Shown: positions 25,478 through 54,728, numbered from the stretch's first letter. The stretch is DNA of 64,000 bases from an uncultured Candidatus Saccharibacteria bacterium (GCA_964648335.1 CAZYLZ010000001.1:93449-157448); one strand, 5' to 3'. Notes: generated from the letters alone by a model not told the origin. Program-made: numbers and translations.

Positions 25478-26476
25478 ATGGTCATGAAGTCGGCCATGCA
25501 ACGGCTCGGTATTTTGCGTTACGCGCCTGTTTTGGCGATCGTTGCTGTCGTGGTGTCGCTATTCCCGGGACATGCGTACGCCGGTTTCGGTATCACACCT
25601 CCCTATGTCAATAATGATCGACTCACTCGCGGAACTCAGTATAAACAGGAGATAACGCTGGTGCGCTCAGACCCGAACGAGGACCTGAAGGCGATCATCA
25701 CTTTGAACATTCCGGGCGCCGAGAGCTGGATTTCGATTGACAAGGGTAAGGAATTCACGCTGCCGAAAGGAGAGAGACAAGTGCCGATCGTCGTGACGGT
25801 TACGGTTCCTAAGGATGCGGAGTACAAGCAATACAAAGGTGCCATCAGAATCAGAACCTCTGCTGCGGATAACGCACCAGCAGGTGGCGGAGTCTCTATC
25901 GCGCTGGGAGCGCAGATTGACGTCGATATGAAGGTCGTGGACAAGATCTATGATTTCGAAGTCAGGCGCATCCGCCTCGTCGATCTCGAAGAGGGCCATA
26001 CTCGCTTCGGACTGTTCTTCCCGGCGAAGATTAGGTTTTTCATGACCATCGAGAACACAGGTAACACCGAGTACGGTCCAACGAAGGTCAAGTTCGACAT
26101 CTTTGATGCTGAGCAGGAGACGCTGTTGGAATCGACCGAAAACACCAATAGGATCGAGCGGATAGCACCGTTCGGCATAAAGGAAATCGTGGCCGAGCTG
26201 CCTACTCGATTACCAGCCGGGCGCTACGCGGCGAAATACACCATTTTCAATGGCGAGAAGGTCGCGCAGCAAAACGTCGCGAATATTTCGATCGCGGTGT
26301 TCGGCGCAGTTCCAGGATACGAAGGTTACGGATTCGAAGGGCTCTCGATCGCCGACAAGCTCAAGGTATTGGTCGTGCTCGGAGTGCCATTCGCACTTCT
26401 CGTAGGTCTCATAATTGCGGTCATCATCCGTCGAAAGAATCGCCGACGCCCGCGAACGACGCATGCTTTCCGATAA
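25478..26476 (+). CDS. CscA-like surface protein (DUF916/DUF3324-like architecture: signal peptide, two beta-sandwich-like halves, C-terminal TM helix and basic tail); fourth paralog of the 46.7-52.0 kb family
   Basis: Signal peptide ..LFPGHAYA; TM VLVVLGVPFALLVGLIIAVII followed by RRKNRRRPR; core similar to CDS 46670, 48025 and 50866 (ITLNIPGAESWISIDKG..FTLPKGERQVPIVVTVTVP). Confidence 0.55.
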   Translation: MVMKSAMQRLGILRYAPVLAIVAVVVSLFPGHAYAGFGITPPYVNNDRLTRGTQYKQEITLVRSDPNEDLKAIITLNIPGAESWISIDKGKEFTLPKGERQVPIVVTVTVPKDAEYKQYKGAIRIRTSAADNAPAGGGVSIALGAQIDVDMKVVDKIYDFEVRRIRLVDLEEGHTRFGLFFPAKIRFFMTIENTGNTEYGPTKVKFDIFDAEQETLLESTENTNRIERIAPFGIKEIVAELPTRLPAGRYAAKYTIFNGEKVAQQNVANISIAVFGAVPGYEGYGFEGLSIADKLKVLVVLGVPFALLVGLIIAVIIRRKNRRRPRTTHAFR

Positions 26477-27647: not shown

Positions 27648-27670
27648 CAGGTCTGAGTACGCGGTATACT

Positions 27671-31351: not shown

Positions 31352-31755
31352 ACCATCAAGAAAAAGGCATGATCAAGGAAAATCCAAACCTCATAACGCT
31401 CAAAGAAGCGGCAGAAATGTCTGGCTATAGTTCGGACTACATTGGGCAACTGATTCGCAGTGGAAAGTTACCCGGGCAGCAGGTATTCGCCAATGTTGCA
31501 TGGATGACGACGCGCGAGGCAGTCCTCGAATACACACAGAAGGGACGGAGGTCTTCTGTCGGGTCCACGGGCAGCCTGTTCGAAAAGATGTTTTCGATTG
31601 AGCGATTGGTCGCGATCTTCGGGGTTTTCACCAAGGCGGTTATCGGTCTTATGGCGGTGTTCTTGCTTTTTCTGGGCTACGTACTGTCGGTCAGCATCGA
31701 TCACCACATCGAGAAGCAGTACCAGGAGAAACTAGAGCATGCACAGAGCATCTAA
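31339..31755 (+). CDS. small membrane-tethered DNA-binding protein with an excisionase/MerR-type HTH (HTH_17-like) and a C-terminal TM helix
   Basis: ITLKEAAEMSGYSSDYIGQLIRSGKLPGQQVFANVAWMTTREAVLEY fits the Xis-family HTH pattern; TM AVIGLMAVFLLFLGYVLSV; its 3' end overlaps the giant gene 2 start by 17 nt. Confidence 0.65.
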   Translation: MTNLDHQEKGMIKENPNLITLKEAAEMSGYSSDYIGQLIRSGKLPGQQVFANVAWMTTREAVLEYTQKGRRSSVGSTGSLFEKMFSIERLVAIFGVFTKAVIGLMAVFLLFLGYVLSVSIDHHIEKQYQEKLEHAQSI

Positions 31756-37700: not shown

Positions 37701-40700
37701 CGGTAAGCGGCTCCACGACGCTCCAGAACGTTTCGGCAGTGAACGCAACCACGACGAATGCGACCACCACCGGCAGCGCCTACATCGCGAATCTCTCGCT
37801 CGGCTCGGCACTCACCGCTTCAAACGGCGGTACTGGCATCTCGGCTCCTGCAGCAGCTGGCATCCTCCTGGGCAACTACGCAGGCGGCGGCTACCAGCAG
37901 CTCGCAACATCCTCGCTCGGCCTCTCTACTACCGACATCACCGAAGGCACAAACCTCTACTACCAGAACGCCCGTGTCTTGACCTACCTCGACACGTTCA
38001 ACAAGGGCTACTTCTACTCAACAACGTCAACTGACTACTGGAAGACCCAAAACAATTTCTTCTCAACCACCTCGGCAGATGCCTGGAAGCTCGTGAGTAA
38101 CTTCTTCTCTACCACCTCCTCACAGTACTTCTTGTCGCAGAACCAGGGAGCCGCGTTCTCGACCACGTCGGCCATGTACTTTGCCGACGCATCATCGACT
38201 ATCGCCAAGACCTACTCGAACAACACCTTCACCGGAGCGAATGTGTTCAATGGCAACACGACCTTGGGCAAGGCGACCACCACATCCTTTGCCATCACCT
38301 CGGTGCCTGCCGCCATCCTCAAGACCGATGCAAACGGCTCCGTCATCCCGGCGATCGCCGGCGTCGACTACCTCACGGGCAGCCTCTACGGCAAGTCATT
38401 CGAGATCGACGCATCGGGCTACCTCGCACCGACCACCTCGGTCACGGTGCGTCTCCCGAGCGGCTTTGTCTCCCAAGCATCGTCGACGGTCGATGGAAAT
38501 CTCACCGTGACCGGTAACGTGACTGCCGCAAACGCCACTGTAACTAATGCGACCTCGACATCGTTGTTCGCCTCGATTGCTTCGTCGACGAGCGCTTTTG
38601 CCACGCGTTTGTTCGTCGGGAATGCGACGGCGACTGGGGTGTTTGCAGCCAACGGCCTCATCGTATCCGGCTCGACGACGTTGCAGAATTTTTCGGGTAA
38701 CAATGCGACCACTACGAACCTGTATGCCGTAACGGCATCTACGACAAATCTCTTCGTATCGAACGGCACTATCGTTCGCTCGACTACCACAAACGCGACA
38801 ACAACGACCAGTTTCGCAACTACTGCTTCGTCGACTAATCTTTTCGCTTCGAACTTCTCACTTGGCAACCTCACGGGAATACTCAAGGCAACTGCGGGTA
38901 CGGTGTCGACCGCGCTCGTGAATCTGGCGACCGATGTCACGGGCATCTTGCAGGTGGCAAACGGAGGCACCGGCTGGGCAGCGGTGCAGGCGGGATCGCT
39001 CTTGTATGGAAATGGATCGGGTAGCTTGGCTACTACGACACAGGGCAGCGCAGGCCAGATGCTCGCGTTCTTGAACGGCGTGCCGACGTGGGTCGCGACG
39101 ACCACGTTCTCGAACGGCCTTACCTATGCCAATGGAAATGTCACGCTCTCTTCGCAAGTCGCGCTCACTAACGCGTCTTCTACTGCGGTATCTGCCAATG
39201 ACTATCTTTCGGTTGGTCGAACAGCGACGACCACAATCCGTGGCGAAACGAACGCAACATCTACCTTTGCTGGTGGTATCCAGGCAACCGCACTCAACCT
39301 TACGGGTGCTGCGACATCTTCTGCCTCGGGTGGATTCAATCTCACAGCCGGGTGTTTTGCAGTGAACGGGACCTGTCTCGGAAACGCGCAACCAGGAACT
39401 AATGTTGTATTGACTGCGGTGCGCAATTACACGACAACGCAACAGTGGACGGTCCCGTCAAACCTCGTGTATGCAGTGGTCGAAGTGTGGGGTGGTGGTG
39501 GAGGAGGAGGAGACGGAGACGGTACCGGAGACGGTACCGGCGGCGGCGGCGCAGGCGGTTATGCATCAAAGACGTACACGGCGACCACGTTGGTCGGAAC
39601 TACTTCGATCCAGGCGCTTGTTGGTGCCGGCGGTGCAACGACAACGAGCGCGACCGGCAGTACTGGCGGTACCTCAAACTTCGGTGGATACGCCACCTCG
39701 ACTGGCGGTGCAGGCGGCGTCCGTGCAAATGGTGGCGAAGGCGCGGGAGGAGCCGGCGGGGTCGGCTCTGGAGGCGATATTAACCTGGCAGGAGAACCGG
39801 GTGGTCTGGGCGATACGACGATGGCAAACCAACAAGGTAACGGTGGTTCCGCGCCTCGCGGCGGTAACGGCGGCCTTGGAGGAAATCAGACCACGGGTAA
39901 TGGCGCAGTGGGTGGTACCTGCGGTGGCGGTGGCGGTGGCGCCGGTGGTGCGGCAGGAGGCGGCGGTACTGGTTGCATAGTCATCTATGAATACACGGCC
40001 ACTAACGTTGCACTCGGAAACGGCAGCGTAAATTCCGGATCGACCGGTCAGGTTGCTTACTATAACGCTGCTGGGCAGGCGGTCACGGGCTCGTCGATAC
40101 TATATATAGACAGTGTAAACGGTCGCGTGGGAGTCGGTTCGACCACTCCGGCCGCCGCCTTGGGTGTCTCGGGCGACGCATTCATAAACGGACGGGTGAC
40201 AGCGTCGCACCTGACTGCAACAGGTACCTTGTCGGTCACTGGGTCCACGACACTCCAAAACTTTACAGCGGGAAATTCGACCACATCTAATGCAACCTCG
40301 ACCAATACGTTTGCCACGACGGCATCGTCGACAAACCTTTTTACATCAAACTTTACCTTGGGTGGTCTTACCGGGATCCTCAAAGCAACTGCGGGTCTCG
40401 TCTCTGCATCTTTAGTAGACCTCACCACCGACATCACCGGCATCCTCCAGGTAGCAAACGGCGGAACCGGATGGGACAACCTTGTCGCCGGAACACTCCT
40501 TACCGGCAATGGCTCGGGCAAGGTGGCTACCACCACGATCGGATCCTCGCTCCAGATCTCGGGCTCGTCTCTTGGTCTCAATCTCTCGAATCCGAACATC
40601 TGGACCGGTCTCCAGACTTTCACCAACGCGTCGACCACCTTTGTCTCCGTCCTTACTAAGGCGTCGTTCGGATCGACCGCCACCACCACCATCGACTCGG

Positions 40701-43387: not shown

Positions 43388-43420
43388 AAAATGGTATTCT
43401 TTAGCAATAATTCGCACCGT

Positions 43421-44398
43421 ATGAAAAAGTTTATCGCTCGCATAGTCACACTCTCGGTCATCCTATCAATGGGGTCGTTTCAGACGGCGTTCGCGCAAGC
43501 GGTGCCTGATGCTGTAGCCGCCGAGATTCCTGCGGCAGTACCAGTCGTACCGGTGCCTGTCGAACCGGCTCCAACGCCCCCGATCGAGACGCCACCGGCA
43601 GATCCTGCTGGCGATGTGCAAAGTGTTCCTATAGAGCCAGGCACTGTTGCTGAGGCAACCACCGAAACCGTCCAAGAGACGTTTAATGTCCAAGACGGTA
43701 CCTCGGGGGTAACGCTTGAGACTACGACCAACCCCGAGACTGCGACCTCGACGGAGTCTGACGCAACGATTGTGCCAATCGTTGATGCGACATCTACGGA
43801 GGCGACAACAACGCCGGTGGTAGTCGTCGAGGCGACCACCACCGAACCCTCAATACCAGTACCCGACGCCGTGTTGGATGTGGTGACGCCGGACATCCAG
43901 TCGGTGCCGGTTGTCGAGGAGACCGTTGCCGATCCAGTGCCGGTGCCCGAGCCTGTTCCCGAACCTATCGTCCTCGATACCGAAGAACTCACTCCTTCGC
44001 CCGACTTTGCCTTCGCTCTCACGGGCCGGCAGATCCCTACGAAGCGCAAAGTAGAGAACGCCGAAGGGAAAGTGATCCGCGAAGAAGCGGTGTCGGCGCC
44101 GCTTTCGTCGACGGTAGACAACGCAAACGGAGTCATGCATGTGTCTGGCTCGTGCAGCGATGCCTACTTCGTCGTACTCCTCTTCAAGAACCAGAACGAC
44201 TATGCAGACGACCCAAGCTCGTACATCGTAAATCGCGCATACCCGTGTGTCGCCGGCGCGTACTCGTACTCGATTTCCGAGTTGCCGTTCGGTCTCAAAG
44301 ACGGCACGTACTACCTGCTCATCGGCCAGCAAGGAGAGCGCGGTGCATGGACGCCTATCACCGGACTTACCGAGATATCCATTAACAATAATCAGTAA
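43421..44398 (+). CDS. secreted Pro/Thr/Val-rich low-complexity protein with a Cys-containing C-terminal globular part
   Basis: ATG at 43421 gives MKKFIARIVTLSVILSMGSFQTAFAQA (signal peptide); PVPVEPAPTPPIETPPADPAGD tracts; the longer ORF call starts at 43391. Confidence 0.65.
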   Translation: MKKFIARIVTLSVILSMGSFQTAFAQAVPDAVAAEIPAAVPVVPVPVEPAPTPPIETPPADPAGDVQSVPIEPGTVAEATTETVQETFNVQDGTSGVTLETTTNPETATSTESDATIVPIVDATSTEATTTPVVVVEATTTEPSIPVPDAVLDVVTPDIQSVPVVEETVADPVPVPEPVPEPIVLDTEELTPSPDFAFALTGRQIPTKRKVENAEGKVIREEAVSAPLSSTVDNANGVMHVSGSCSDAYFVVLLFKNQNDYADDPSSYIVNRAYPCVAGAYSYSISELPFGLKDGTYYLLIGQQGERGAWTPITGLTEISINNNQ

Positions 44399-44404
44399 CG
44401 CATC

Positions 44405-44821
44405 ATGATCGACTTTATTCTAGAAAACGGATTCAAGAGCCTGATCTTCTGGGTCGTGGGCGTGCTCGCGGGAGGAGTCTTTGTGCTCGCAACAGGCATC
44501 GACTTTGGATCGGCGTTTCCTACACCTCCCGCGAACAAGTTTCAGGCAGTCTTCCTCTCTAACAACCAGGTCTACTTCGGACGGCTCCAAGATCTCGATG
44601 CCAACTATGTGACCCTGTCCGATGTGTACTACCTTCGTACGGCCTCCGATCTCGAGAATCAGAAGGACTCGGGCACAGGCCTCAATCTTATAAAGCTCGG
44701 CGGAGAGCTCCACGGGCCAGAGGACACAATCTACATACCGAAGTCGAGCATCCTCTTCTGGGAGAACCTCAAGGATTCGTCCCGGGTAGTGCAGTCGATT
44801 ATAGGATCAAAGACCAATTAA
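44405..44821 (+). CDS. small hypothetical membrane protein (one N-terminal TM)
   Basis: TM LIFWVVGVLAGGVFVLATGI; no recognisable motif. Confidence 0.55.
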   Translation: MIDFILENGFKSLIFWVVGVLAGGVFVLATGIDFGSAFPTPPANKFQAVFLSNNQVYFGRLQDLDANYVTLSDVYYLRTASDLENQKDSGTGLNLIKLGGELHGPEDTIYIPKSSILFWENLKDSSRVVQSIIGSKTN

Positions 44822-44841
44822 GAATTTAGAAACACTACCGT

Positions 44842-45306
44842 ATGCAACGCGAATCAATGGTCATTCATCTCAAGAACTCACAGGACGAAGCGCCCGACCA
44901 CGGACGCATACTCGAGCGCCCTGCAGCACCGCAACCTCCGCGAAAGAAGCGCAAGCCGCCGTACCTGCTTGTCGCGCTCTCGCTCATAACGATTGTGGCC
45001 GTCATCGGTGGCATCTTCTGGTTTACTCGTCCGTCGGCCTTCAAGCAGGGAACCGCCGAGATAAGCGCGGCCGAGATCACTTCGCTCGTCGACAAGGTGG
45101 GTGAACTCATGCTCTTGCCGACCGAAGAGAAGCCTACTGTCGCAACCGTCTCAGACCTCAATCCTCTCAAGGACCAGCTATTCTTCAAGAATGCCCATGT
45201 CGGCGACATGGTGCTCATGTACCCTAAAGCTCGTCGCGCGATCCTCTACAGCCCCTCAGAAAATAAGATCATCGAGGTAGCGCCTATCACCCTCGACGCA
45301 CAGTAA
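44842..45306 (+). CDS. small hypothetical membrane protein (basic N-terminus, one TM)
   Basis: KKRKPPYLLVALSLITIVAVIGGIFWF. Confidence 0.55.
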   Translation: MQRESMVIHLKNSQDEAPDHGRILERPAAPQPPRKKRKPPYLLVALSLITIVAVIGGIFWFTRPSAFKQGTAEISAAEITSLVDKVGELMLLPTEEKPTVATVSDLNPLKDQLFFKNAHVGDMVLMYPKARRAILYSPSENKIIEVAPITLDAQ

Positions 45307-45311
45307 GATGC

Positions 45312-46640
45312 ATGCGTGCGACCTCCAACACACAGAAGGTTCTCAGCGTCTTTCTGATGCTCGTATGGGTTATGTCGCCCGTATCTGCCGTCTTTGCCGA
45401 CAGCTTTTCGAGTACTAATTTCAAGGCAAAGGATCCCGTAACGAACAATTTTGGCGGGTCAGCCTCGTCGACCAGCTTCTCGTCGGTCCAGAGCGGAGGG
45501 CAGTCGGTGACGGGCGAATCTACGAGCACGAGTTACGCCATAACGATGGGCTATGCCTATTTCGAGACTTTTACGCCGCGATCGGGTAACTGGCAGTGGT
45601 TTTCTGACGAGACGAACGAGACACCAACCGCCGCGCTTGCGTCAGAAAACGTCGCGCCGAGCGATATGGGCGAGCAGGACGTTACCAAGCTGCGCATCAC
45701 GGTGCACGAGATTGCCGATATCGGTTCGAGCGGACAAAAGTTCCGCCTCCAGTATTCGACATCGTCTGATTTTTCTTCGGGCGGAATCTTCGTGTCCGAG
45801 CAGACGGTCTGTAACGGCTCCTCACAATGGTGCTATGCAGACGGTGCCGGAGTCGACAACGCGATCGTCACTACCTCTGTCCTTACCGATCCTGATTCGT
45901 GCGTAGCGAGCGTCGGCGACGGTTGTGGCACGCATAACGAATACGGCACCTCGACATCGCTCTACACGCACAAGAAGAGCGCATCGAGCGAATACGAGTT
46001 TACGATCACCCAGTCCGGCGCTGCTATCAATACTGTGTATTTTTTTAGGCTTTTCGATGTCGCCGCGAGCTCATCGGTGGCGGCGTCATCGACGTATCCG
46101 AGTCTCTCGACGGGCGGATCGTCACTCACATTTACCGTCGACGGTCTCGATTCGGGAACGGTGACCGAGGGACAGACGACCGGTGTCACCACGACTCCGA
46201 CGTCGATCCCGTTCGGTACCTTGCCGTTCGGCTCGCCGACAGCTGCTGCGCAGCGGCTGACCGTAACGACGAACGCGAATCAGGGATACCAGGTCTATGC
46301 TCTTGCCGATCAGGGGCTCATCGATCAGACCGGAGCCGAGATTGCTCCGGTGACGGGTACCGATAGTACGCCCTTGGGATGGTCGACCGCGTGCGACACG
46401 AACGCCGCCGGGTGTTACGGCTATCATACGGGCGAAGACGTGCTCTCGGGCGGGTCGACGCGATTCTCCGCCGACGATACATTCGCGAGTTTCTCGAACA
46501 CACCGCAAGAGATCGGATTCAGCGCGGTGCCAGCGGTCTCGAAGCAGACCGATGTCGTGGTCCGTGTACTCGCACGTACGAGCCAAGATGCCGGCGCTTA
46601 TGCGAGCAGCATCATGTACATCATCGTTCCTGTCTTCTAG
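45312..46640 (+). CDS. secreted protein with a C-terminal WxL-like domain (candidate CscB/C-like surface protein)
   Basis: Signal peptide ..MSPVSAVFA; C-terminal module TSIPFGTLPFG..AAQRLTVTTNANQGYQVYAL..GAEI..PLGWSTA.. ends ..YASSIMYIIVPVF; paralogous to the C-terminus of CDS 49651. Confidence 0.5.
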   Translation: MRATSNTQKVLSVFLMLVWVMSPVSAVFADSFSSTNFKAKDPVTNNFGGSASSTSFSSVQSGGQSVTGESTSTSYAITMGYAYFETFTPRSGNWQWFSDETNETPTAALASENVAPSDMGEQDVTKLRITVHEIADIGSSGQKFRLQYSTSSDFSSGGIFVSEQTVCNGSSQWCYADGAGVDNAIVTTSVLTDPDSCVASVGDGCGTHNEYGTSTSLYTHKKSASSEYEFTITQSGAAINTVYFFRLFDVAASSSVAASSTYPSLSTGGSSLTFTVDGLDSGTVTEGQTTGVTTTPTSIPFGTLPFGSPTAAAQRLTVTTNANQGYQVYALADQGLIDQTGAEIAPVTGTDSTPLGWSTACDTNAAGCYGYHTGEDVLSGGSTRFSADDTFASFSNTPQEIGFSAVPAVSKQTDVVVRVLARTSQDAGAYASSIMYIIVPVF

Positions 46641-46669
46641 TGTGCATAAGTGCTTAACCGATTACCTGT

Positions 46670-48028
46670 ATGCCCCGTAAAATACAACCTATGTTCGCGC
46701 GACTCGTGGCCCCGTTCTTTTTGGCAGTGATGGTCTTCTCTCATGCACCGCTGCCGGCGTACGCCGCGACCGACATGACTGCCACACCGGCGGTCATGGA
46801 CGAGAAGGCTAAGGCGCGAGACATCCTTAAGAAGGAGATCACGATCAAGAACACGAGCAGCCGCAAGCTGACCGTGTATCCGATCGTCAAGGATGTCGTA
46901 TCAGAGACGGGGGCGACGGGATTCGTACAGGCACAAGATAGCACTGAGCGATCTGCATCGCTTGCCAACTGGATCGAGCTTTCCCGAGGCGTAATCGAGC
47001 TCGGTCCCGGCGAAGAGAAAGTCGTCCCCTTCGTGATCCGAGCCAACCTCAATGCGACGCCGGACATGTATCATGCGTATATAACCTTCGGTGAGGGCAA
47101 TACGCGCGAAGTCGCAGAAGCGAAGCCACCCCTGGCGACTGTCACGGTCAATCTCGAGCTTCAGGCCGACCTCAAAGAGCTTTTGCAGTTGAATAAGTTC
47201 ACGACCGAGAATGTTTATTTTGCCGGAGATGACGTACGTCTGAGCTACCAGTTCGAGAACATTGGTAATCAGACGCTCGCTCCTGCAGGAGAGATTGTCA
47301 TTTACGACCGCAAAGGGTCAGAAGTAGCGACCCTGGAGATAAATAAGGAAGGGAAGTCGGTGTCGCCCGCACAGATGACACAATTCGCGTCGGTCTGGAC
47401 TGCGGCTAAAGGGTATGGAAAGTTCAAGGCGCTTTTGAGTGTGCGCTACGGATCTGACGAGAAAGGGACGCTCCAAGACACAGTGTTCTTCTGGATAATA
47501 CCGTGGAAACAGATTCTTGCGGCGTTCATCATCGGCATCATTCTCATAACGATTTTCGTATTCTATTTCCACGGCAAGATATCGCTCCGCAGGCGTCCAG
47601 GCCTCGTCGAGGCAGCACCGCTTGCAGCTGCGGTGCCGCGGATGTCTGCCGACATAGCACGGCCTGTCTCTGCCGTTTCAGATGCTCCTGTCGACGCTCC
47701 ACGCGAGGGCCTCGTCAAACGAGGGGTCATGTCGGTACTCCGTGGTGTCTTGTGGCCGTTTACCTTTGTTATGTCCTTGTTTAAGCGAAAAGCGCGCAAT
47801 CCCGAAGCGGCACGCATTCAGACTGAAGATACGTCAGTCCGCGCCGAGATTCCTGCATCGGCAGAGCGCGGCGGCTCTCCTGCTGCTGGTGATGCCGCGC
47901 CGCGCCGCGCGTCCTTCGATGAAGCGAATCAGGGCACGGTGATCGATCTTAAGAAGATTCGCAGCATGGACCGCTCGAAAGACATCGAACCGACCGACGG
48001 ACACGTGATAAATCTAAAGCGGCGATGA
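46670..48028 (+). CDS. CscA-like (DUF916/DUF3324-like) surface protein with a C-terminal TM anchor and a cytoplasmic tail of about 150 aa
   Basis: Signal peptide ..HAPLPAYAA; WIELSRGVIELGPGEEKVVPFVIRANLNATPDMYHAYITF; TM ILAAFIIGIILITIFVFYF. Confidence 0.55.
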   Translation: MPRKIQPMFARLVAPFFLAVMVFSHAPLPAYAATDMTATPAVMDEKAKARDILKKEITIKNTSSRKLTVYPIVKDVVSETGATGFVQAQDSTERSASLANWIELSRGVIELGPGEEKVVPFVIRANLNATPDMYHAYITFGEGNTREVAEAKPPLATVTVNLELQADLKELLQLNKFTTENVYFAGDDVRLSYQFENIGNQTLAPAGEIVIYDRKGSEVATLEINKEGKSVSPAQMTQFASVWTAAKGYGKFKALLSVRYGSDEKGTLQDTVFFWIIPWKQILAAFIIGIILITIFVFYFHGKISLRRRPGLVEAAPLAAAVPRMSADIARPVSAVSDAPVDAPREGLVKRGVMSVLRGVLWPFTFVMSLFKRKARNPEAARIQTEDTSVRAEIPASAERGGSPAAGDAAPRRASFDEANQGTVIDLKKIRSMDRSKDIEPTDGHVINLKRR

Positions 48029-49422
48029 GCCCGAATACTATGACGAGAGTGCCCTCCAGACTAGTTGCAGTAGCACTTCTTTCCACACTGGTGTTTCTGT
48101 CGCCACATGGTGCGGGAGCACAGACCGAGACAGCTCTTTCGGTTTCGGTGACACCGCCACTATTCCAGTTGACGATCGGTCCTGGAGAGTTCTGGGCGAG
48201 TTCGATAAAGATAGTCAATAGCAATCCGTACGATGTCACCTACTACACGACACTGGCGGACTTCGAAGCCCGCGGCGAAGGGGGGCAATCGAAATTCATC
48301 CCGCTTCTCAATGAAGTAAACGATCCTACGAGACAGACATTTTCGCTCGCGAGCTGGCTTACCCTTTCGCCCGAGCCCGTCTTCGTGAAGGCTGGGCAGA
48401 GTGGCACGGTCCCGTTCTCGATTCGTATCCCTGAAAACGCTGAGCCGGGCGGACACTACGCAGCGATACTTGTCGGTACAGAGCCCCCGCCGGATACTGA
48501 GAAGGGCGCACAAGTGAAGGTCTCGAGCTTTGTCTCGTCACTCCTTTTCGTAAAGGTAAAAGGTGAGATTAACGAGAGTGGTCGGATCCGCGAGTTCAGA
48601 ACGGAGCAACAGCTCTATGATTCTCCGAAAGCCGATTTTATGCTGCGCTTCGAGAATACGGGCAACACCCACCTCAAACCGCAGGGAAATATCGTGATCT
48701 ACAACATGTGGGGCAAGCCGCGCGGCATGGTCGAGATTAACCAGAACAACAATTTCGGAAACGTTCTGCCCAAAAGCATCCGCAAGTTCGAGTTCTCATG
48801 GGACGGCGAGGCTAATCCTTTTGAAATCGGCCGCTATAGCGCTGTTGTGACGCTCGCTTTTGGCGAAGATAATAAGCAAAACATATCCGCCACGAACTAC
48901 TTCTGGGTCATTCCGGTCGTACCGGTGTCTATTGCGCTTGGTCTCGTAGTCATCTTCGTCATACTGATTCTCTTGTTCGTACGACGCTATATCCGCCGTG
49001 CGCTTGCTATCGAGCAGGCCATGAGCCTGCAACGAGGGCCGGTACGCGAGTCACGTCCGTCTCCACGCGTCATAGAAACGCTCATGGAACCGATCAGAGA
49101 GGGAATCATAGACCTTCGTAAGGTCGGTATTCGCGAGGAGCAGCGGCATCCGCGACCGGTTTCGGTGGCGCTACTTAAAAGTGCAAAGACCGACGTGCGA
49201 GTGCCTCGCTACGTCGAAGAAGCCCCCGAAGAGACCGAGACGATGACCCTCTTGGAATTCATAGTCGAATACAAGGCCTTCGTAGGATTCGTAGTCCTCT
49301 TGATGGTCGCATCACTCGTCGTCTGGGGCTATTTCCATCGCGTGCTTACGCCGAACCGCACCTACCAGATAACCGGAGTAGTCACTCACGATGAGGATCC
49401 AGATGTGGATTCACGCAAATGA
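48025..49422 (+). CDS. CscA-like (DUF916/DUF3324-like) surface protein with C-terminal TM anchor(s)
   Basis: ATGA overlap with the upstream gene; signal peptide ..PHGAGAQTE; SWLTLSPEPVFVKAGQSGTVPFSIRIPENAEPGGHYAAILVG; TM VSIALGLVVIFVILILLFV followed by RRYIRR. Confidence 0.55.
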   Translation: MSPNTMTRVPSRLVAVALLSTLVFLSPHGAGAQTETALSVSVTPPLFQLTIGPGEFWASSIKIVNSNPYDVTYYTTLADFEARGEGGQSKFIPLLNEVNDPTRQTFSLASWLTLSPEPVFVKAGQSGTVPFSIRIPENAEPGGHYAAILVGTEPPPDTEKGAQVKVSSFVSSLLFVKVKGEINESGRIREFRTEQQLYDSPKADFMLRFENTGNTHLKPQGNIVIYNMWGKPRGMVEINQNNNFGNVLPKSIRKFEFSWDGEANPFEIGRYSAVVTLAFGEDNKQNISATNYFWVIPVVPVSIALGLVVIFVILILLFVRRYIRRALAIEQAMSLQRGPVRESRPSPRVIETLMEPIREGIIDLRKVGIREEQRHPRPVSVALLKSAKTDVRVPRYVEEAPEETETMTLLEFIVEYKAFVGFVVLLMVASLVVWGYFHRVLTPNRTYQITGVVTHDEDPDVDSRK

Positions 49423-49650
49423 TGAATAGGGAGTGAAGTAGTGCGTATGTGTATAAAACCAAGGGAATCAAAGATAAAATACGCCGTTATCCACACCGGT
49501 CAGAGTGATTTTCACCATACTCTACTATACTTGTCTTGTAAGGAGTGATGTGCGTCCCTCCTCATTAGTGGCACTAGCGATTGATAGATACCAACATATT
49601 CCAACGTAGTCATTTAGAAGAAAGTTAATCAACGTTATTCACGACCACTT

Positions 49651-50793
49651 ATGAATCTTGCAATGAGCCGCACCTCTTTCCTCGCCGGAGTCCCAGCGAA
49701 GATCTCGGCACTTCTCGTCCTGACTACGCTCATGTGGGCAACGGGATTCCCTTCGCTCATTCCATTCGCACGAGCAGCCGCGATAACGTCTTTCAGTGAC
49801 ACCATCACGAACTCCGATTTGGGAGTTGCCACCGACCACTACTTCAGATTCACGACGACGGCGTCACTCGATGCCGACGACACCATAGAAATCGATTTCG
49901 ATCCAACCGGAGCGCTGTTCACGATAGCAGGACTCGTGGCTGCTGATTTTACGAACGAATCGGGTATCGATATCGTCGCAGCATGTGGCGGAGGTGGTAA
50001 TGAAGCTACTGTCTCGGCAACCGGCGACAAGATCACTCTTACCGTCTGTACGGGTGACGCTGTTACAGCCGGCGCCATAACGTTCAAGATCAATAACACG
50101 CGCATCACGAGCCCGGGAGTAGCATCGTCTTACGTCATCCGACTCGTCACGACGAACGACGGATCTGCTATTCGTGACCGAGGCGACACGCGCATCGCCA
50201 TCCTCGACAACGTCGTCGTTACCGCATCGGTGGACACCATCTTCACCTTCACGGTATCGAGCGTCGCAGAAAACCTGGCCGTCAACGGCGATGCAACCAA
50301 TACCGCGACCACGACCACCGCTACATCGATCCCATTCGGTACACTCTTGCCGGGAGTTCCTAAGGTAGCCGCACAAACTCTCTCGGTGGCGACAAACGCA
50401 CGCAACGGCTTTACTGTGACCGTCGTCGAAGATCAAAACCTTACATCGCAAACCGGTGCAGACATCGACCTCTTCATCGACGGTGCTACCACATCCGTGC
50501 CAGTGGCATGGCAGTCACCGGCCAGTACGCTCGATTCGGAAAATACATACGGTCACATCGGCGTCACTACCGAAGATGCGACACTGAGCGATGGAGACTC
50601 CTTCGGAGTCGCGCTCTATGCCGGTAATATCGATGCGCCACGCGAGGTCTTCTATCATACGGGTCCTGCCGATGGGACGACAGCCAACAAAGGACGGACA
50701 CGAGTTGCTTACAAAGTCGAGATCGGATCCTTGCAGGAAGCAGGTAACGACTACACCAACACCCTAACCTACGTTGCGACACCGATATTCTAG
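49651..50793 (+). CDS. secreted protein with a C-terminal WxL-like domain (candidate CscB/C-like)
   Basis: Signal peptide ..IPFARAAA; TSIPFGTLLPG..AAQTLSVATNARNGFTVTVV..GADI..VPVAWQSPAS.. ends ..YTNTLTYVATPIF (compare the WxL terminal motif Y.G.LTW.L..AP). Confidence 0.5.
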   Translation: MNLAMSRTSFLAGVPAKISALLVLTTLMWATGFPSLIPFARAAAITSFSDTITNSDLGVATDHYFRFTTTASLDADDTIEIDFDPTGALFTIAGLVAADFTNESGIDIVAACGGGGNEATVSATGDKITLTVCTGDAVTAGAITFKINNTRITSPGVASSYVIRLVTTNDGSAIRDRGDTRIAILDNVVVTASVDTIFTFTVSSVAENLAVNGDATNTATTTTATSIPFGTLLPGVPKVAAQTLSVATNARNGFTVTVVEDQNLTSQTGADIDLFIDGATTSVPVAWQSPASTLDSENTYGHIGVTTEDATLSDGDSFGVALYAGNIDAPREVFYHTGPADGTTANKGRTRVAYKVEIGSLQEAGNDYTNTLTYVATPIF

Positions 50794-50808
50794 TGGCCTA
50801 GTCAAGCA

Positions 50809-50837
50809 AAAGCCGTCCACTGGACGGCTTTTGTCTT
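50809..50837 (+). terminator. rho-independent terminator after the WxL-like gene
   Basis: aagccgtcca/tggacggctt perfect inverted repeat followed by TTGTCTT. Confidence 0.7.
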
Positions 50838-50865
50838 AATGCCGAGAGCCCCTAGGTATGCTAGT

Positions 50866-51972
50866 ATGAAGAGACATTTTATAGACAAAAGCACTATGCA
50901 ACATCGCTTCACTTCAGCCGTTTTTGGCGCACTGTTCTTGGCGAGCGGACTGTTCCTGATCCCATTGATTGCAAGTGCACAGGCTACTGAGGGCGTCCAG
51001 ATCAAGCCGGCAATAGTCGAGGATAAGGCGAAGCCCGGAGATACCTTTCAATTTACTCTCACGGTCACAAATATCGCACCCGTCGCTAAGACGTTCTACC
51101 TGAGCGCCCAAGACATCAAGAGTGTCGATGAGCAGGGGATACCGGTATTCTCGAGCGACGACCAGGTGACGCAATATTCGCTGAGTACCTGGATAGCACT
51201 GCCGCAATCTTCGATACAGCTCGCTGCTGGGGAAGCGAAGACTATTCCGTTTACGGTCCATGTGCCGGCGGGTGCCGGGCCCGGATCTCACTACGGCGGC
51301 GTGTTTCTTGATGCACGCCCTCCAAAAGAACAAGCAACCGGCGCTGCTGTGGGTATGAAAGTCGGATCGATCGTAAGTATCAGGATTGCCGGTGACATCG
51401 CGGAGGAAGCGCGACTGCGGGAATTCTCTACCGACAAACTTATTTATGGAGAGCCTACTGTTGCGTTCCATTCTAAGGTAGAAAACCTCGGAAACGTATT
51501 GGTTCGACCCCTCGGACTCATCGAAGTGACGAATATGTTCGGCAAAAAGATCGCAACGATGCGCGTTAACGACAGTGGCGCTTCGGTCTTTCCGACGCAG
51601 GAGCGGGTCTACACCAATGACTGGGCATACGAGGACTTCGCCTTCGGCCGTTATCAGGCGGTCGTGAGTCTGGTATACGGTGACGAGGCGCGCAAGACCA
51701 TATCGGGAACGACGTCATTCTGGGTGCTGCCATTCAAGCCAATTATGATAATCCTCGGTTCGGTCTTGGGTGTCGCACTCGTGTTGTTCTTCCTCATTCG
51801 TTCGTACATCATGCGTAAGCTTCGGCAGATGGGCGTGTCTCCTAAGAATCAGGCCGTAGGCTCGTACAATAAGGGGTATCAGCGGTCGGCGTCGCGGCTC
51901 CTCTTTACTATCGTCGGGATCGTATTCTTTACGGCACTCTTCATCTTCGTGCTCTTCCTCATGTTCGCTTAG
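50866..51972 (+). CDS. CscA-like (DUF916/DUF3324-like) surface protein with C-terminal TM anchor(s)
   Basis: Start taken at MKRHF (50866; the longer call is 50839); signal peptide ..LIPLIASAQA; TWIALPQSSIQLAAGEAKTIPFTVHVPAGAGPGSHYGGVFLD; TM IMIILGSVLGVALVLFFLI followed by RSYIMRK. Confidence 0.55.
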   Translation: MKRHFIDKSTMQHRFTSAVFGALFLASGLFLIPLIASAQATEGVQIKPAIVEDKAKPGDTFQFTLTVTNIAPVAKTFYLSAQDIKSVDEQGIPVFSSDDQVTQYSLSTWIALPQSSIQLAAGEAKTIPFTVHVPAGAGPGSHYGGVFLDARPPKEQATGAAVGMKVGSIVSIRIAGDIAEEARLREFSTDKLIYGEPTVAFHSKVENLGNVLVRPLGLIEVTNMFGKKIATMRVNDSGASVFPTQERVYTNDWAYEDFAFGRYQAVVSLVYGDEARKTISGTTSFWVLPFKPIMIILGSVLGVALVLFFLIRSYIMRKLRQMGVSPKNQAVGSYNKGYQRSASRLLFTIVGIVFFTALFIFVLFLMFA

Positions 51973-51990: not shown

Positions 51991-52413
51991 ATGAACAGCG
52001 GTACTATCAGGTCGACAGTGAGCAAAGGCGCCCTGATAGTGGCCGTGACTTTGCTTGCGTACGCTCTTTATTCGACACCGCTCGACAGGTTAAGTTCGCT
52101 CGCCTTGGAGACTGTTGCAAGCGCGACAGTCTCGATGAGTGCTGGCGTCCCTCCTAATCCGTACAACACTGCGGCCGAGCAGCTGAGCGCGAAAGAGGCA
52201 GAGCTTGTCGCTCGCGAGAACCGACTCACGATGCGCGGGTCGATGCCATCGAACCCGGCTGGCCACGATACATTTGCGGTCTACAGCCTTCTGGTCAGTA
52301 TCGCCCTTTTTATACTCGTCGCGATCAACTTCTTTTTTGACTGGAAGAGGGGGAGACAAGGGGTCCCAGCGTCTGCACCGTATCTTTCGCTCGATTTGCG
52401 CCGACGACAGTAA
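51991..52413 (+). CDS. hypothetical membrane protein (two TM helices)
   Basis: LIVAVTLLAYALY and YSLLVSIALFILVAINFFF. Confidence 0.5.
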   Translation: MNSGTIRSTVSKGALIVAVTLLAYALYSTPLDRLSSLALETVASATVSMSAGVPPNPYNTAAEQLSAKEAELVARENRLTMRGSMPSNPAGHDTFAVYSLLVSIALFILVAINFFFDWKRGRQGVPASAPYLSLDLRRRQ

Positions 52414-52457: not shown

Positions 52458-54182
52458 ATGCGTCCGGTAATCATGCATAAGTTCGCAGTACTCTTCTCGT
52501 TTCTTTTTTTTCTCATGCCTGCTGTCGTGCAAGGCGGTACCCTTACATTCGTTACCGATCTCATATCGACCTCGATGCCGTCGGCAACGACCACAACGCA
52601 CACCATTCGCTTCACTGCGACGCATGCGATACCGGCTTCTGGCACTATCGTCATCACTCCCCAGGCGGGCGGGTTCACTATTCCGGCGGATTTCGATGTA
52701 AACGATGTCGATTTCCTCGTAAACTCGACGGGCTCGTACGTGGACCGTACTATCGATACGGTCGCCGATGTCACCACCGACGGAGTCACTATCGTCTCGG
52801 GTACCTCCGGTTCTATCAATATAAAGCTCTCGTCTGGAGCCGGCATACAACAAGGTGACAGAATCATGATCCTTCTGGGTACCAACGCGGTCTCACAAGC
52901 ACAGGGAATCCATTCGATAACGAATCCGTCGACACCTGCATCCTACCGAATACGCATCGATACCCTCGATCAGAGCGATGCTCCGATGGACAGTGCGAGC
53001 GCCATGGTAGCGATTGTGCGCCAAGTCACGATCCTTATCCGTCCCGAGGCTGTCGCTCCGCTTCGCTTTGCAGGGCTTCCATCTGGATCTATCCCATCGC
53101 GCTCGAGTAGTATCGAGATATCTCTCCAGACAGATCAGCGCGCTACCTGCCGGTATTCGACCACGCCCAACACGATCTATTCCGCGATGACGGGAACGTT
53201 CAATGCCATGTCGGGTAACTTGTCTTTTTACAAAGTGATCACCGGACACCAAGACGGTACCTCGTACACATACTACGTCCGTTGCTTCAGTCTCCAAGGT
53301 GCAGAAAACACCGACGACTACGAGATTACATTTAACTTGCGACCGACCGAGACTATTCCGACACCGGGCGTGGAAGGCAGCACCGCTCCCATAGGATCGT
53401 CGGGACATGGCGGCGTGGGGCCGTTTCCTGACGGAAGCGATCTTTTGTATCGCTCGACCGTCACGGTATCGGGCTGGGCGCCGCCTCTGAGCACCGTTTA
53501 CGTACTTATGGATAGCAAGCAGATCAAAGAGACACAGGCGCAATCCGACGGAAGCTTTAGCGCTAAGGCCGACAGCCTCGAGCGCGGCACGTATACGTTT
53601 ACTGCATATGCGATGGACCCGCAGGGCAGGAAGACCGCGCCACATTCAGAAACGCTCGATGTCTCTGCAGCGACGAACAACTACATCTCAGATATCGTGC
53701 TCTCCCCGACGATCTCGCTCCTCGACGACACGATAAACCCTGGCGAGGACGCCCGTCTTGCGGGCGAGGCGGTACCGGGGAGTACCATCGAGATCATGCT
53801 CATCGCTAAGAGTAAATCGAACGAGATACCAGTGACCAAGACCTATGTCGCGAGCACGACACGCCCCTCGTCCGGGTCGTGGACCTTCACCATACCTGCG
53901 CTGGACACGCAGCGGGGGACCTATTTCATAAAGGCTCGCGCCACGCATGTGAATGACAGCGAAAGCGAATACAGCAAACCGATATCGCTCGGAGTCGGAG
54001 AGCAGGCAAGCGGAGATCTCTCGAACCGTTCTGACATCAATAAAGATGGCAAGGTCAATCTCGTCGACTTCTCGATACTGCTCTCGGCATGGGGAGAGAC
54101 CGAGGGGGACGCCGACATCAACGAAGATGGGCGGATAAACCTGGCCGACGTGAGTATCCTTCTCTTTAACTGGACGGGTTAG
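52458..54182 (+). CDS. secreted dockerin-tailed protein with Ig-like domains
   Basis: Signal peptide ..FLMPAVVQG; Ig-like unit with SDGSFSAKADSLERGTYTFTAYAMD; C-terminal DINKDGKVNLVDFSILLSAWGE..DINEDGRINLADVSILLFNWTG (dockerin repeats). Confidence 0.7.
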   Translation: MRPVIMHKFAVLFSFLFFLMPAVVQGGTLTFVTDLISTSMPSATTTTHTIRFTATHAIPASGTIVITPQAGGFTIPADFDVNDVDFLVNSTGSYVDRTIDTVADVTTDGVTIVSGTSGSINIKLSSGAGIQQGDRIMILLGTNAVSQAQGIHSITNPSTPASYRIRIDTLDQSDAPMDSASAMVAIVRQVTILIRPEAVAPLRFAGLPSGSIPSRSSSIEISLQTDQRATCRYSTTPNTIYSAMTGTFNAMSGNLSFYKVITGHQDGTSYTYYVRCFSLQGAENTDDYEITFNLRPTETIPTPGVEGSTAPIGSSGHGGVGPFPDGSDLLYRSTVTVSGWAPPLSTVYVLMDSKQIKETQAQSDGSFSAKADSLERGTYTFTAYAMDPQGRKTAPHSETLDVSAATNNYISDIVLSPTISLLDDTINPGEDARLAGEAVPGSTIEIMLIAKSKSNEIPVTKTYVASTTRPSSGSWTFTIPALDTQRGTYFIKARATHVNDSESEYSKPISLGVGEQASGDLSNRSDINKDGKVNLVDFSILLSAWGETEGDADINEDGRINLADVSILLFNWTG

Positions 54183-54200: not shown

Positions 54201-54728
54201 ATGCCCAACCAGAAGATGTTGTATATCGGTGTCGCCGCCATGGCAGGTATCTTGGTAGTAGCGACGTGTGTCGTGCTTTTCGTAAACCGAAACAAGAAAC
54301 CGGTCGAGACCATCAAGAAGGAATATGCCCTGGTATTTCAGGATTACGCAGGCAACGACGTGCGCTTCGCCGACTTCAAGAAGAAACCCTTGGTGGTGTT
54401 CATGTGGGCCTCGTGGTGTCCGTACTGCTCGGACGAGATAGCGAACCTGGCCAAGCTCAAGAGTATCTTTGGCGAGGACGTGAATACGGTCGCGGTCAAT
54501 CGAGGAGAGCCTGGACCGGTAGCACAAGAATTCTCCAGAAAGATCGCAGGAACGGACGGTATAGTATTCTTGCTCGATCCGGAGGATGCTTTGTATAAGA
54601 GTATCGGCGGATACGCGATGCCCGAGACCATCTTCATCGATCCGGGAGGAGAAGTAGTCTACCATCAGCGGGGCCCGCTTCCTTTGAAAGAAGCCAGTCA
54701 GAAGCTCAATGAGCTCCTCGGTCGCTAA
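54201..54728 (+). CDS. membrane-anchored thiol-disulfide oxidoreductase of the TlpA/ResA type (thioredoxin fold, WCPYC)
   Basis: N-terminal TM; FMWASWCPYCSDEIANL with a CxxC active site. Confidence 0.85.
   Translation: MPNQKMLYIGVAAMAGILVVATCVVLFVNRNKKPVETIKKEYALVFQDYAGNDVRFADFKKKPLVVFMWASWCPYCSDEIANLAKLKSIFGEDVNTVAVNRGEPGPVAQEFSRKIAGTDGIVFLLDPEDALYKSIGGYAMPETIFIDPGGEVVYHQRGPLPLKEASQKLNELLGR

What the first reader, a model, noticed from the sequence alone, without database searches (positions are those of the whole stretch)
45312..51972. Csc-like cell-surface-complex cluster: WxL-like plus DUF916/DUF3324-like genes, with a distant fourth paralog at 25478
The gene order is WxL-like (45312), CscA-like (46670), CscA-like (48025, ATGA-coupled), WxL-like (49651), terminator, CscA-like (50866). 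The two secreted WxL-like proteins share a C-terminal module (TSIPFGTL.(F/P)G..AAQ.L(T/S)V.TNA..G(Y/F).V) with a W-x-(S/Q) site and the endings YTNTLTYVATPIF and YASSIMYIIVPVF. These resemble the terminal Y.G.LTW.L..AP motif of Firmicute WxL domains, but with the Trp replaced by Tyr. The four paralogs (a fourth copy lies at 25478..26476) have a signal peptide, two beta-rich halves, a G.HY(G/A)(G/A) segment in two of the four, a C-terminal TM helix and a basic tail, which is the CscA (DUF916 plus DUF3324) architecture. If genuine, this is a diverged WxL/Csc system in what appears to be a non-Lactobacillales genome, with an aromatic substitution at the key WxL position.
Basis: partly seen in the sequence, partly recalled or inferred. 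Interest (0 to 1): 0.8.

Follow-up and report, generated by a model that had tools for sequence, protein, structure and literature searches.

The report
Divergent Pam-type pilus operon, DUF916 chaperones

Summary
The genes, the shared C-terminal module (35% identity over 157 aa), the ATGA overlap, the terminator and four membrane-anchored paralogs are all present.

The membrane-anchored paralogs are true relatives of CscA/WxLIP:
- 45/48 orthologs hit Pfam DUF916.
- hhalign against real WxLIPs gives 97.9% probability.
- The best solved-structure match is E. faecium WxLIP, followed by PapD/FimC/Caf1M-type pilus chaperones.

The secreted proteins are not WxL members. None of 93 family members hits Pfam WxL, and the solved WxL domain does not appear in the fold searches. 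Their C-terminal domains instead align end-to-end with NCBIfam CPR_Pam_pilin_C (43/45 orthologs of the first protein, best E 8e-11, below the curated cut-off). The predicted fold is sandwich, linker strand, then C-terminal domain, as in PamA/PamB.

The closest known system is therefore the CPR Pam pilus (2026 preprint): donor-strand assembly by membrane-anchored chaperones without an usher. This is a divergent version with three chaperones, two pilins, a pilin-NTD/dockerin protein and a thiol oxidoreductase, conserved in many Parcubacteria-labelled genomes. The same module also ends giant proteins of up to 5,226 aa. The DUF916 link between Pam-type and WxL clusters appears unreported.

The parts
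45312..46640 (+). P1: secreted pilin-like protein (442 aa). It has a signal peptide, a PamT-like N-terminal segment, a Cys-rich beta domain with 6 invariant Cys, a conserved linker strand (LTFTV) and a Pam-type C-terminal acceptor domain.
   Evidence: 43/45 orthologs hit NF058581 CPR_Pam_pilin_C end-to-end (positions 2-148 of 148), at 19-42 bits, best E 8.4e-11. About half also hit NF058579 PamT positions 6-78 with their N-terminus. The window copy itself gave no hit at E<=1. 302 relatives.
46670..48028 (+). C1: membrane-anchored two-Ig-domain chaperone-like protein (DUF916/WxLIP-like paralog).
   Evidence: HMM of the 50839 family E 9e-49. TM segment at residues 282-300. P1-C-C order conserved in 69/79 related loci.
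48025..49422 (+). C2: second chaperone-like paralog, translationally coupled to C1 by an ATGA overlap.
   Evidence: HMM E 1e-75. ATGA seen. PF06030 at 12.3 bits. TM at 301-319 and a second hydrophobic segment at 419-437.
49651..50793 (+). P2: secreted pilin-like protein (380 aa) and likely shaft subunit. Predicted N-terminal beta-sandwich (46-184), linker strand (198-204, DTIFTFTV) and C-terminal domain (238-378).
   Evidence: AF2 model pLDDT 90.5. NF058581 positions 2-148/148 at 17.3 bits, E 0.004, and 10/48 orthologs hit it. The most conserved blocks are residues 181-200 and 361-380. 927+ relatives.
50808..50837 (+). Intrinsic-terminator-like hairpin plus U-tract directly after P2.
   Evidence: Perfect 11-bp stem, dG -26.4 kcal/mol, z -5.0.
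50866..51972 (+). C3: third chaperone-like paralog. The ORF opens at 50839, but that ATG abuts the terminator. Orthologs start at the equivalent of 50896.
   Evidence: PF06030 at 26.3 bits, E 8e-6. 45/48 orthologs hit PF06030. The AF2 model (pLDDT 85) shows two beta-sandwiches plus TM helices. Foldseek top hits are 9i25_C/9i1y WxLIP, then CfaA, Caf1M, FimC, CsuC and PapD.
51991..52413 (+). Small membrane protein (140 aa, two hydrophobic segments) of unknown role, conserved at this position.
   Evidence: 130-135 aa genes occupy the same position in L001 and L003. Hydrophobic segments. No family hit.
52458..54182 (+). D: secreted protein with a P2-type N-terminal domain but no acceptor domain, followed by Ig-like (Big_13/Big_6) domains and a C-terminal dockerin. 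Candidate terminal or anchoring subunit.
   Evidence: P2 NTD HMM E 3.4e-12 over the whole NTD. Dockerin_1 31.9 bits and Big_13 31.7 bits. Same position in L001/L003 and in 16+ loci.
54201..54728 (+). Membrane-anchored ResA/DsbE-like thiol-disulfide oxidoreductase. Candidate oxidase for the pilin disulfides.
   Evidence: Redoxin 67.6 bits and AhpC-TSA 57 bits. ResA 50 bits. Conserved after the dockerin gene in L001 and L003.
31739..45306 (+). Conserved upstream genes: a giant secreted protein (3882 aa, 31739-43387), a 335-aa secreted protein and two small single-TM proteins (138 and 154 aa).
   Evidence: The same order (giant protein, about 313 aa, about 130 aa, about 155 aa, then P1) occurs in L001. 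None has a pilin C-terminal domain. No informative family hits.
25478..26476 (+). C4: distant fourth chaperone-like paralog, with a single TM helix and a basic tail, in a second locus beside a Cys-rich secreted protein and another dockerin protein.
   Evidence: hhalign against the C3 family gives 96.5%, E 9e-10 over 261 columns. HMM E 2e-7. TM at 299-317.

Best explanation
The cluster encodes a usher-less, donor-strand-based surface fibre of the Pam type in a monoderm CPR (Parcubacteria-like) bacterium.

Proposed mechanism. Everything in this list is inferred; the points marked at the end are what was shown directly.
- P1 and P2 are exported by Sec.
- Each ends in an incomplete Ig-like C-terminal domain.
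- That domain is first completed by a strand from one of three membrane-anchored, two-domain PapD-like chaperones (C1-C3). These belong to the DUF916/WxLIP family.
- The domain is then completed by the conserved linker strand ((L/F)TFT(V/I)xG) of the next subunit, which yields a linear filament.
- P2 is the likely shaft. It is the larger family and is followed by a terminator.
- P1 is the likely distal or adhesin-carrying subunit. It has a PamT-like N-terminus and a Cys-rich domain, and in other genomes the same unit ends giant proteins.
- The dockerin protein carries the P2 N-terminal domain but no acceptor domain, so it could cap or anchor the fibre.
- The ResA-like oxidoreductase would form the pilin disulfides.
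- The fibre presumably mediates contact with hosts or surfaces.

Shown directly: the homologies, the predicted folds and the conserved synteny.
For: Pilin side:
- P1 orthologs match the curated Pam pilin C-domain model end-to-end, 43/45 with E down to 8e-11. Their N-termini match PamT.
- P2 matches the same model weakly.
- The P2 model (pLDDT 90.5) has the PamA/B layout of beta-sandwich, single linker strand and C-terminal domain (compared with the preprint 10.64898/2026.03.03.709456 read).
- The linker and the last strand are the most conserved parts of P2, as the preprint reports for Pam pilins.

Chaperone side:
- The predicted structure has two beta-sandwiches plus a TM helix.
- Structural matches are WxLIP, then CfaA, Caf1M, FimC, CsuC and PapD. 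This is the description given for PamC/PamD.

Context:
- No usher, sortase or LPXTG is present.
- Gene order is conserved: P1-C-C in 69/79 loci, and the full order in L001 and L003.
- There are 2,098 representative proteins with this linker plus C-domain module. 49 of the best 150 are proteins of at least 1,000 aa that end in a P1-type unit.
- WxLIP is predicted to complete the WxL sandwich with one of its strands (PMC10599100).
Against: - All Pam-model scores are below the curated cut-off (17-42 bits against 55). The window's own P1 gave no hit at E<=1.
- I could not obtain PamA-E, PamT or PamC/D sequences or structures, so homology to them rests on NCBIfam models only.
- Fold searches of P2 gave only generic Ig-like matches.
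- No multimer prediction was possible, so strand exchange is not modelled.
- 26 loci with at least 4 kb downstream have P1-C-C without an adjacent P2. The core may therefore display proteins rather than polymerise.
- No PamR-like anchor was recognised.
- The chaperones have long tails and extra hydrophobic segments that are not described for PamC/D.
Confidence: 0.65

Rival explanations
1. A WxL/Csc-type cell-surface complex rather than a filament. Proteins with the C-terminal module (P1, P2, and giant proteins elsewhere) would be held non-covalently at the cell surface by the DUF916-type membrane proteins, which complete their C-terminal sandwich. This is what is proposed for WxL and WxLIP in Lactobacillales. 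No polymerisation would occur.
For: - The membrane proteins are WxLIP homologs.
- The logic of small module-only proteins plus large proteins with the module at the C-terminus mirrors short and long WxL proteins (PMC10599100).
- P1-C-C occurs without P2 in 26 loci.
- The motifs are collinear (FG, G-aromatic-x-V/L, Y..TLT-aromatic). One hhalign run gave 24%, with a score of 29 against column shuffles of 12 +/- 2.2.
Against: - No Pfam WxL hit in 93 family members.
- Real WxL proteins do not hit the Pam models.
- The hhalign signal collapses to 1.5% with a larger alignment.
- The solved WxL domain is absent from the fold-search tops.
- There is no LPXTG partner.
- The conserved linker strand and the Pam-model matches point to polymerising subunits.
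Confidence: 0.2
2. Unrelated beta-rich adhesins or envelope proteins that merely sit next to Ig-like membrane proteins. The similarities to Pam, WxLIP and PapD-like chaperones would reflect the ubiquity of Ig-like folds, with no strand complementation.
For: - Fold searches of P2 return many generic Ig-like adhesins and cohesins.
- Pfam also gives weak fn3_5, FixG_C and DUF11 hits on the membrane proteins.
- All Pam-model hits are sub-threshold.
Against: - Profile-profile probability to WxLIP is 97.9% over 296 columns. Unrelated beta domains score 9-21 in the same test.
- The Pam C-domain model is matched end-to-end by 43/45 P1 orthologs and is the only recurrent family.
- Pilin-chaperone gene coupling is strict across 69/79 loci.
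Confidence: 0.1
3. A classical chaperone-usher pilus or a sortase-assembled Gram-positive pilus.
For: Structural matches to CU chaperones and to Gram-positive pilins.
Against: - No usher-like or sortase family hit in any cluster ORF.
- No LPXTG motifs.
- The chaperones are membrane-anchored, and CPR bacteria lack an outer membrane (the last point is established knowledge).
Confidence: 0.03

Closest known systems
Pam pilus of CPR bacteria (PamA/B/E pilins, PamT tip, PamC/PamD membrane-anchored chaperones; Troman et al., bioRxiv 10.64898/2026.03.03.709456; NCBIfam NF058581, NF058579)
   Same: [quoted passage not shown]
- A PamT-like N-terminus in P1.
- Conserved cysteine pairs.
- Two-Ig-domain chaperones carrying a C-terminal TM helix.
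- No usher.
- A very large surface protein encoded next door.
- A CPR host.
   Different: - Scores lie below the curated cut-offs (17-42 bits against 55).
- Lineage-labelled relatives are Parcubacteria groups. [quoted passage not shown]
- There are three chaperones with long tails and a second hydrophobic segment.
- No PamR-like anchor is recognised.
- There is an extra pilin-NTD/Ig/dockerin protein and a ResA-like oxidoreductase.
- No ATP synthase neighbourhood was noticed.
- The same unit is fused to giant proteins elsewhere.
WxL / Csc cell-surface clusters of Lactobacillales (CscA = WxLIP: DUF916 + DUF3324 + TM; CscB/C = WxL proteins; CscD = LPXTG). Siezen 2006 PMC1534035; Hassan 2023 PMC10599100; PDB 9i1y, 9i25
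   Same: - The membrane-anchored proteins are homologous to WxLIP (DUF916 domain, two Ig-like domains, TM helix).
- They sit in clusters with secreted proteins that share a roughly 160-aa C-terminal beta module.
- Both small proteins and very large proteins carry the module at the C-terminus.
- The membrane protein is predicted to complete the partner's sandwich with one of its strands.
   Different: - The secreted proteins are not detectable WxL domains, by sequence or by fold search.
- The Trp-x-Leu motifs are replaced by G(F/Y)xV and TLTY.
- DUF3324 is not detected.
- There is no LPXTG protein.
- An extra N-terminal domain and a linker strand are present.
- The host is a CPR bacterium, not a Firmicute.
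Chaperone-usher pili of Gram-negative bacteria (PapD/FimC/Caf1M/CfaA/CsuC chaperones)
   Same: The two-domain Ig-like chaperone fold is recovered by Foldseek (E 1e-9 to 1e-7). Assembly is inferred to use donor-strand complementation and exchange.
   Different: - No usher and no outer membrane.
- The chaperones are membrane-tethered.
- The pilins have two domains, and the donor strand is an internal linker rather than an N-terminal extension.

Membership tests
DUF916 / WxLIP_PGBD (Pfam PF06030) | Match to the Pfam model at or near the gathering score | tested here: met
   45/48 orthologs of the 50839 ORF match, best E 2.6e-9. Many carry a precomputed PF06030 hit and one is named 'DUF916 domain-containing protein'. 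The window copy scores 26.3 bits against a cut-off of 27.3. Domain-1 hhalign against real WxLIPs gives 97%.
WxLIP / CscA (DUF916 + DUF3324 + TM) | Second domain is DUF3324 / WxLIP_HBD (PF11797) | tested here: not met
   0/48 members hit PF11797. Domain-2 against WxLIP domain-2 by hhalign gives 1%.
WxLIP / CscA (DUF916 + DUF3324 + TM) | Overall architecture: signal peptide, two Ig-like domains, C-terminal TM helix | tested here: met
   AF2 model. Full-length hhalign 97.9% over 296 columns. Foldseek top hits are 9i25_C and 9i1y, aligned over about 259 columns. TM segments. The clustered copies have extra tails.
WxL domain (Pfam PF13731) | Match to the WxL model | tested here: not met
   0/48 P2-family and 0/45 P1-family members hit at E<=1 and E<=10 respectively, and neither window protein hits at E<=1.
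WxL domain (Pfam PF13731) | Two Trp-x-Leu motifs | tested here: not met
   The positions that line up by eye carry G(F/Y)xV and TLT(Y)/IMY.
WxL domain (Pfam PF13731) | Profile or fold similarity to real WxL domains | tested here: inconclusive
Csc cluster (Siezen 2006) | Small LPXTG-anchored CscD component in the cluster | tested here: not met
   No LPXTG-type C-terminal sorting signal in any ORF of either locus.
Pam pilus (CPR) | Pilin C-terminal domain matches NF058581 CPR_Pam_pilin_C at the curated cut-off (55 bits) | tested here: not met
   17.3 bits for P2 and 19-42 bits for P1 orthologs. The matches are end-to-end, significant (E to 8e-11) and recurrent (43/45 and 10/48). The relation is supported, but membership at the cut-off is not.
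Pam pilus (CPR) | [quoted passage not shown] | tested here: met
   AF2 model of P2: 46-184, 198-204 and 238-378, pLDDT 90.5. This is a prediction only. Groove occupancy could not be inspected.
Pam pilus (CPR) | PapD/FimC-like chaperones with a C-terminal TM helix encoded beside the pilins | tested here: met
Pam pilus (CPR) | PamT tip pilin and PamR membrane anchor | tested here: inconclusive
   Only the N-terminal 6-78 of the PamT model is matched, by P1 orthologs. No separate PamT gene and no PamR-like gene are recognised in the window.
Pam pilus (CPR) | Filament assembled by donor-strand exchange | not testable with these tools
   No multimer prediction or experiment is available.
Chaperone-usher pili | Outer-membrane usher | tested here: not met
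   No usher family hit in any cluster ORF.

The most novel reading that the evidence does not exclude
The WxL/WxLIP (Csc) clusters of Firmicutes and the Pam-type pili of CPR bacteria would be two branches of one ancient, usher-less strand-complementation system of monoderm bacteria. In it, DUF916-type membrane-anchored chaperones hand over or hold subunits with an incomplete C-terminal sandwich. The window's system would be a link between the two branches, and its pilin C-domain would be a WxL homolog in which the tryptophans became Phe/Tyr. That would imply that WxL proteins may also be assembled, or even polymerised, by donor-strand exchange.
Probability: 0.3. Interest if true: 0.8.

Novelty: new variant of a known kind. 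Interest (0 to 1): 0.6.

Why it matters
- Pam pili were described only in 2026, from one cultured Saccharimonadia parasite. This cluster indicates that a divergent version is conserved across many Parcubacteria-labelled genomes. That version has its own gene set: three chaperones, two pilins, a dockerin-bearing pilin-like protein and an oxidoreductase. Current curated models miss it, because its scores fall below the cut-offs.
- The search found 2,098 representative proteins with the linker plus C-domain module. Many are giant proteins that end in a pilin unit. The module may therefore be a general way for these cells to mount very large adhesins on fibres.
- The membrane-anchored chaperones are bona fide DUF916/WxLIP relatives. 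This ties a CPR pilus system to the long-enigmatic WxL/Csc clusters of lactic acid bacteria and enterococci.
- It also gives a testable mechanistic hypothesis for those clusters: chaperone-like strand complementation.

Tried and rejected
- **PDB sequence searches for PamA/PamB.** Single sequences and profiles of P1 and P2 found nothing. The Pam structures cited in the preprint supplement are evidently not in the copy.
- **hhalign of the pilin C-domain against real WxL domains.** The result looked promising once (24%, above shuffles) but fell to 1.5% with a larger alignment. I do not claim homology.
- **Cross-scans.** Real WxL proteins against the Pam models, and P1/P2 families against Pfam WxL, all gave no hits.
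- **The 627-aa protein at 23410-25293 as a third pilin.** I suspected this because of its ISFGALEPG motif. Only a 19-column, non-significant match resulted.
- **27635-28618 and 28615-29610 as membrane-anchored cohesins** that could receive the dockerins. Pfam, NCBIfam and PDB sequence searches gave no cohesin hit.
- **A pilin C-domain at the end of the two giant ORFs of the window.** None was found.
- **Pam protein sequences from the preprint supplement.** It holds none, so PamC/PamD could not be tested for DUF916.
- **tRNA and Rfam scans of the window.** Both found nothing.

Full report
**Observation**

- 45312-46640 (P1, 442 aa)
- 46670-48028 (C1)
- 48025-49422 (C2)
- 49651-50793 (P2, 380 aa)
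- 50839/50866-51972 (C3)

Further checks:
- The C1 stop and C2 start overlap as ATGA.
- The fourth paralog lies at 25412/25478-26476 (C4).
- An HMM of the C3 family finds C2 (1e-75), C1 (9e-49) and C4 (2e-7). C4 reaches hhalign 96.5% over 261 columns.
- P2 is followed by a perfect 11-bp hairpin and U-tract at 50808-50837 (dG -26.4 kcal/mol, z -5.0).
- One detail differs. Only C4 has a simple TM helix plus basic tail. C1-C3 have a TM helix, a long tail and a second hydrophobic segment that is weak in C1.

**The membrane-anchored paralogs**

- The C3 ORF scores 26.3 bits on PF06030 (DUF916, now WxLIP_PGBD), against a cut-off of 27.3.
- Of 48 aligned orthologs, 45 hit PF06030 (best E 2.6e-9). None hits PF11797 (DUF3324).
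- A profile of the family finds E. faecium WxLIP1 (9i25_C, 9i1y) as the best solved sequence (E 1.6e-4).
- I fetched six real WxL clusters from Lactobacillales plasmids.
  - The family profile aligns with their WxLIPs at 97.9%, E 4e-13, over 296 columns covering both domains and the TM helix.
  - Taken separately, domain 1 gives 97% and domain 2 only 1%. Unrelated beta domains score 9-21 in the same test.
- The AlphaFold model (pLDDT 85) has two beta-sandwiches followed by TM helices.
- Its best Foldseek matches are WxLIP bound to long WxL (9i25_C, E 4e-13) and free WxLIP. Next come the pilus chaperones CfaA, Caf1M, FimC, CsuC, FaeE and PapD, and then RbmA.
- The CscA-like call is therefore right for the family and the architecture, but DUF3324 is not shown.

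**The secreted proteins**

Evidence against WxL:
- Neither window protein, nor any of the 48 P2-family or 45 P1-family members, hits Pfam WxL.
- Real WxL proteins hit no Pam model.
- hhalign of the C-terminal domain against real WxL domains gave 0.7% with P2 only.
- It gave 24% with P1 plus P2. The score was 29, against 12 +/- 2.2 (max 20.5) in 200 column shuffles.
- It gave 1.5% after 105 more sequences were added.
- The motifs line up in order by eye, but homology is not demonstrated.

Evidence for Pam:
- P2 matches NCBIfam NF058581, 'Pam pilus system pilin subunit', over the whole model (2-148/148) at 17.3 bits. 10/48 orthologs match it.
- 43/45 P1 orthologs match it end-to-end at 19-42 bits, best E 8.4e-11. 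The cut-off is 55 bits.
- About half of the P1 orthologs also match the first 78 positions of the PamT model with their N-termini.
- The window's own P1 gave no hit at E<=1.
- The P2 model (pLDDT 90.5) is a beta-sandwich (46-184), one linker strand (198-204) and a C-terminal domain (238-378).
- The most conserved stretches of P2 are the linker region and the last strand.

**The known system**

The preprint 10.64898/2026.03.03.709456 describes Pam pili of Ca. Mycosynbacter amalyticus.
- Its pilins have a beta-sandwich, a linker strand that is donated to the neighbour, and a truncated Ig-like C-domain.
- PamC/PamD are PapD/FimC-like chaperones that carry a C-terminal TM helix.
- The system also has a PamT tip and a PamR anchor, and no usher.
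- Prevalence is reported as highest in Saccharimonadia and Microgenomatia.
- The window's cluster fits this plan.
- The preprint text never mentions WxL, DUF916 or Parcubacteria.
- The WxLIP paper (PMC10599100) predicts that a WxLIP strand completes the WxL sandwich. It does not use the word chaperone.
- No paper in the library links WxL with donor strands, beyond one review that mentions both terms in passing.

**Context and distribution**

- Gene order is conserved in long contigs (L001 in full; L003 partly). The order is: giant protein, three small genes, P1, C, C, P2, C, a ~130-aa membrane protein, sometimes an FGE-sulfatase gene, a ~570-aa Big_13/dockerin protein, and a redoxin.
- In the window, the dockerin protein (52458-54182) carries a full P2-type N-terminal domain (E 3.4e-12) but no acceptor domain.
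- The redoxin is a membrane-anchored ResA/DsbE-like protein.
- P1 has six invariant cysteines.
- A scan of species-representative genomes found 112 relatives. In the 79 loci kept, P1-C-C occurs in 69. In 26 of those there is no adjacent P2 despite at least 4 kb downstream.
- Lineage-labelled relatives are Kaiser-, Adler-, Nomura-, Harrison-, Sung-, Yanofsky-, Jorgensen- and Azambacteria, Paceibacterota and Minisyncoccia.
- 30 loci carry the label 'uncultured Candidatus Saccharibacteria' on third-party assemblies. I could not verify that label.
- An exhaustive search with the linker plus C-domain profile found 2,098 representative proteins, 1,240 of them at E<=1e-10.
- 49 of the best 150 are at least 1,000 aa long, up to 5,226 aa, and end in a P1-type unit. 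A few ~250-aa proteins look PamT-like.

**Mechanism**

I commit to a Pam-type, usher-less donor-strand fibre (confidence 0.65).
- Membrane-tethered DUF916-type chaperones cap the open C-domain of exported P1 and P2.
- The conserved linker strand of the next subunit replaces the chaperone strand.
- P2 is the likely shaft.
- P1 is the likely distal or adhesin-bearing subunit.
- The dockerin protein may cap or anchor the fibre.
- The homologies, the predicted folds and the synteny are shown. Strand insertion, polymerisation, subunit order and function are inferred.
- The main rival (0.2) is a WxL-like, non-polymeric display complex. The P1-C-C-only loci and the giant fusions are compatible with it.

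**Verdict**

The finding is a divergent variant of the recently described Pam system. The added point, apparently unreported, is that its chaperones belong to the DUF916/WxLIP family.

Noticed in passing
window 3-18125 (+), runs off the window start: Open reading frame of at least 6,041 aa, presumably a giant surface protein. One segment (about residues 1711-1832) weakly resembles the Cys-rich N-terminal domain of P1 (E 1e-4).
   Followed up: partly
window 31739-43387 (+): 3,882-aa secreted protein directly upstream of the cluster. It has repeated 'YFYSTTSADYWKSQNNFFSTTS'-type segments and a Gly-rich stretch. Its counterpart in L001 has Gly_rich_2 and a faint Peptidase_G2 hit. The Pam preprint mentions a conserved 'tail fibre-like' neighbour. 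It has no pilin C-domain.
   Followed up: partly
window 23410-29610 (+): Second locus with a parallel layout: a Cys-rich 627-aa secreted protein (15 Cys), the chaperone-like C4, a 410-aa protein with myxo-type Cys repeats, Big_6 and a dockerin, and two proteins with C-terminal TM helices. The N-termini of the last two look cohesin-like by eye, but Pfam, NCBIfam and PDB sequence searches gave no cohesin hit.
   Followed up: partly
proteins P0367-P0513 (representative library): The P1-type unit (Cys-rich domain, linker, C-domain) forms the C-terminus of many giant proteins (49 of the best 150 are 1,000-5,226 aa). Some ~250-aa proteins (P0489, P0496) have only the PamT-like N-terminal motif plus the C-domain.
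   Followed up: partly
window 52458-54182 and 26415-27647: Both chaperone-containing loci end with a dockerin-bearing secreted protein. No cohesin partner could be identified.
   Followed up: partly
window 60001-64000: GC drops to 0.434 from about 0.55 elsewhere. The minus-strand ORFs here (317, 321 and 433 aa) were not identified with any search. This may be foreign DNA.
   Followed up: no
window 1-64000: No tRNA, tmRNA or Rfam family was found at gathering score in 64 kb.
   Followed up: yes
L001 12855-13700; L003 12703-13542: Related operons carry an FGE-sulfatase-family gene between the small membrane protein and the dockerin protein. The window lacks it.
   Followed up: no
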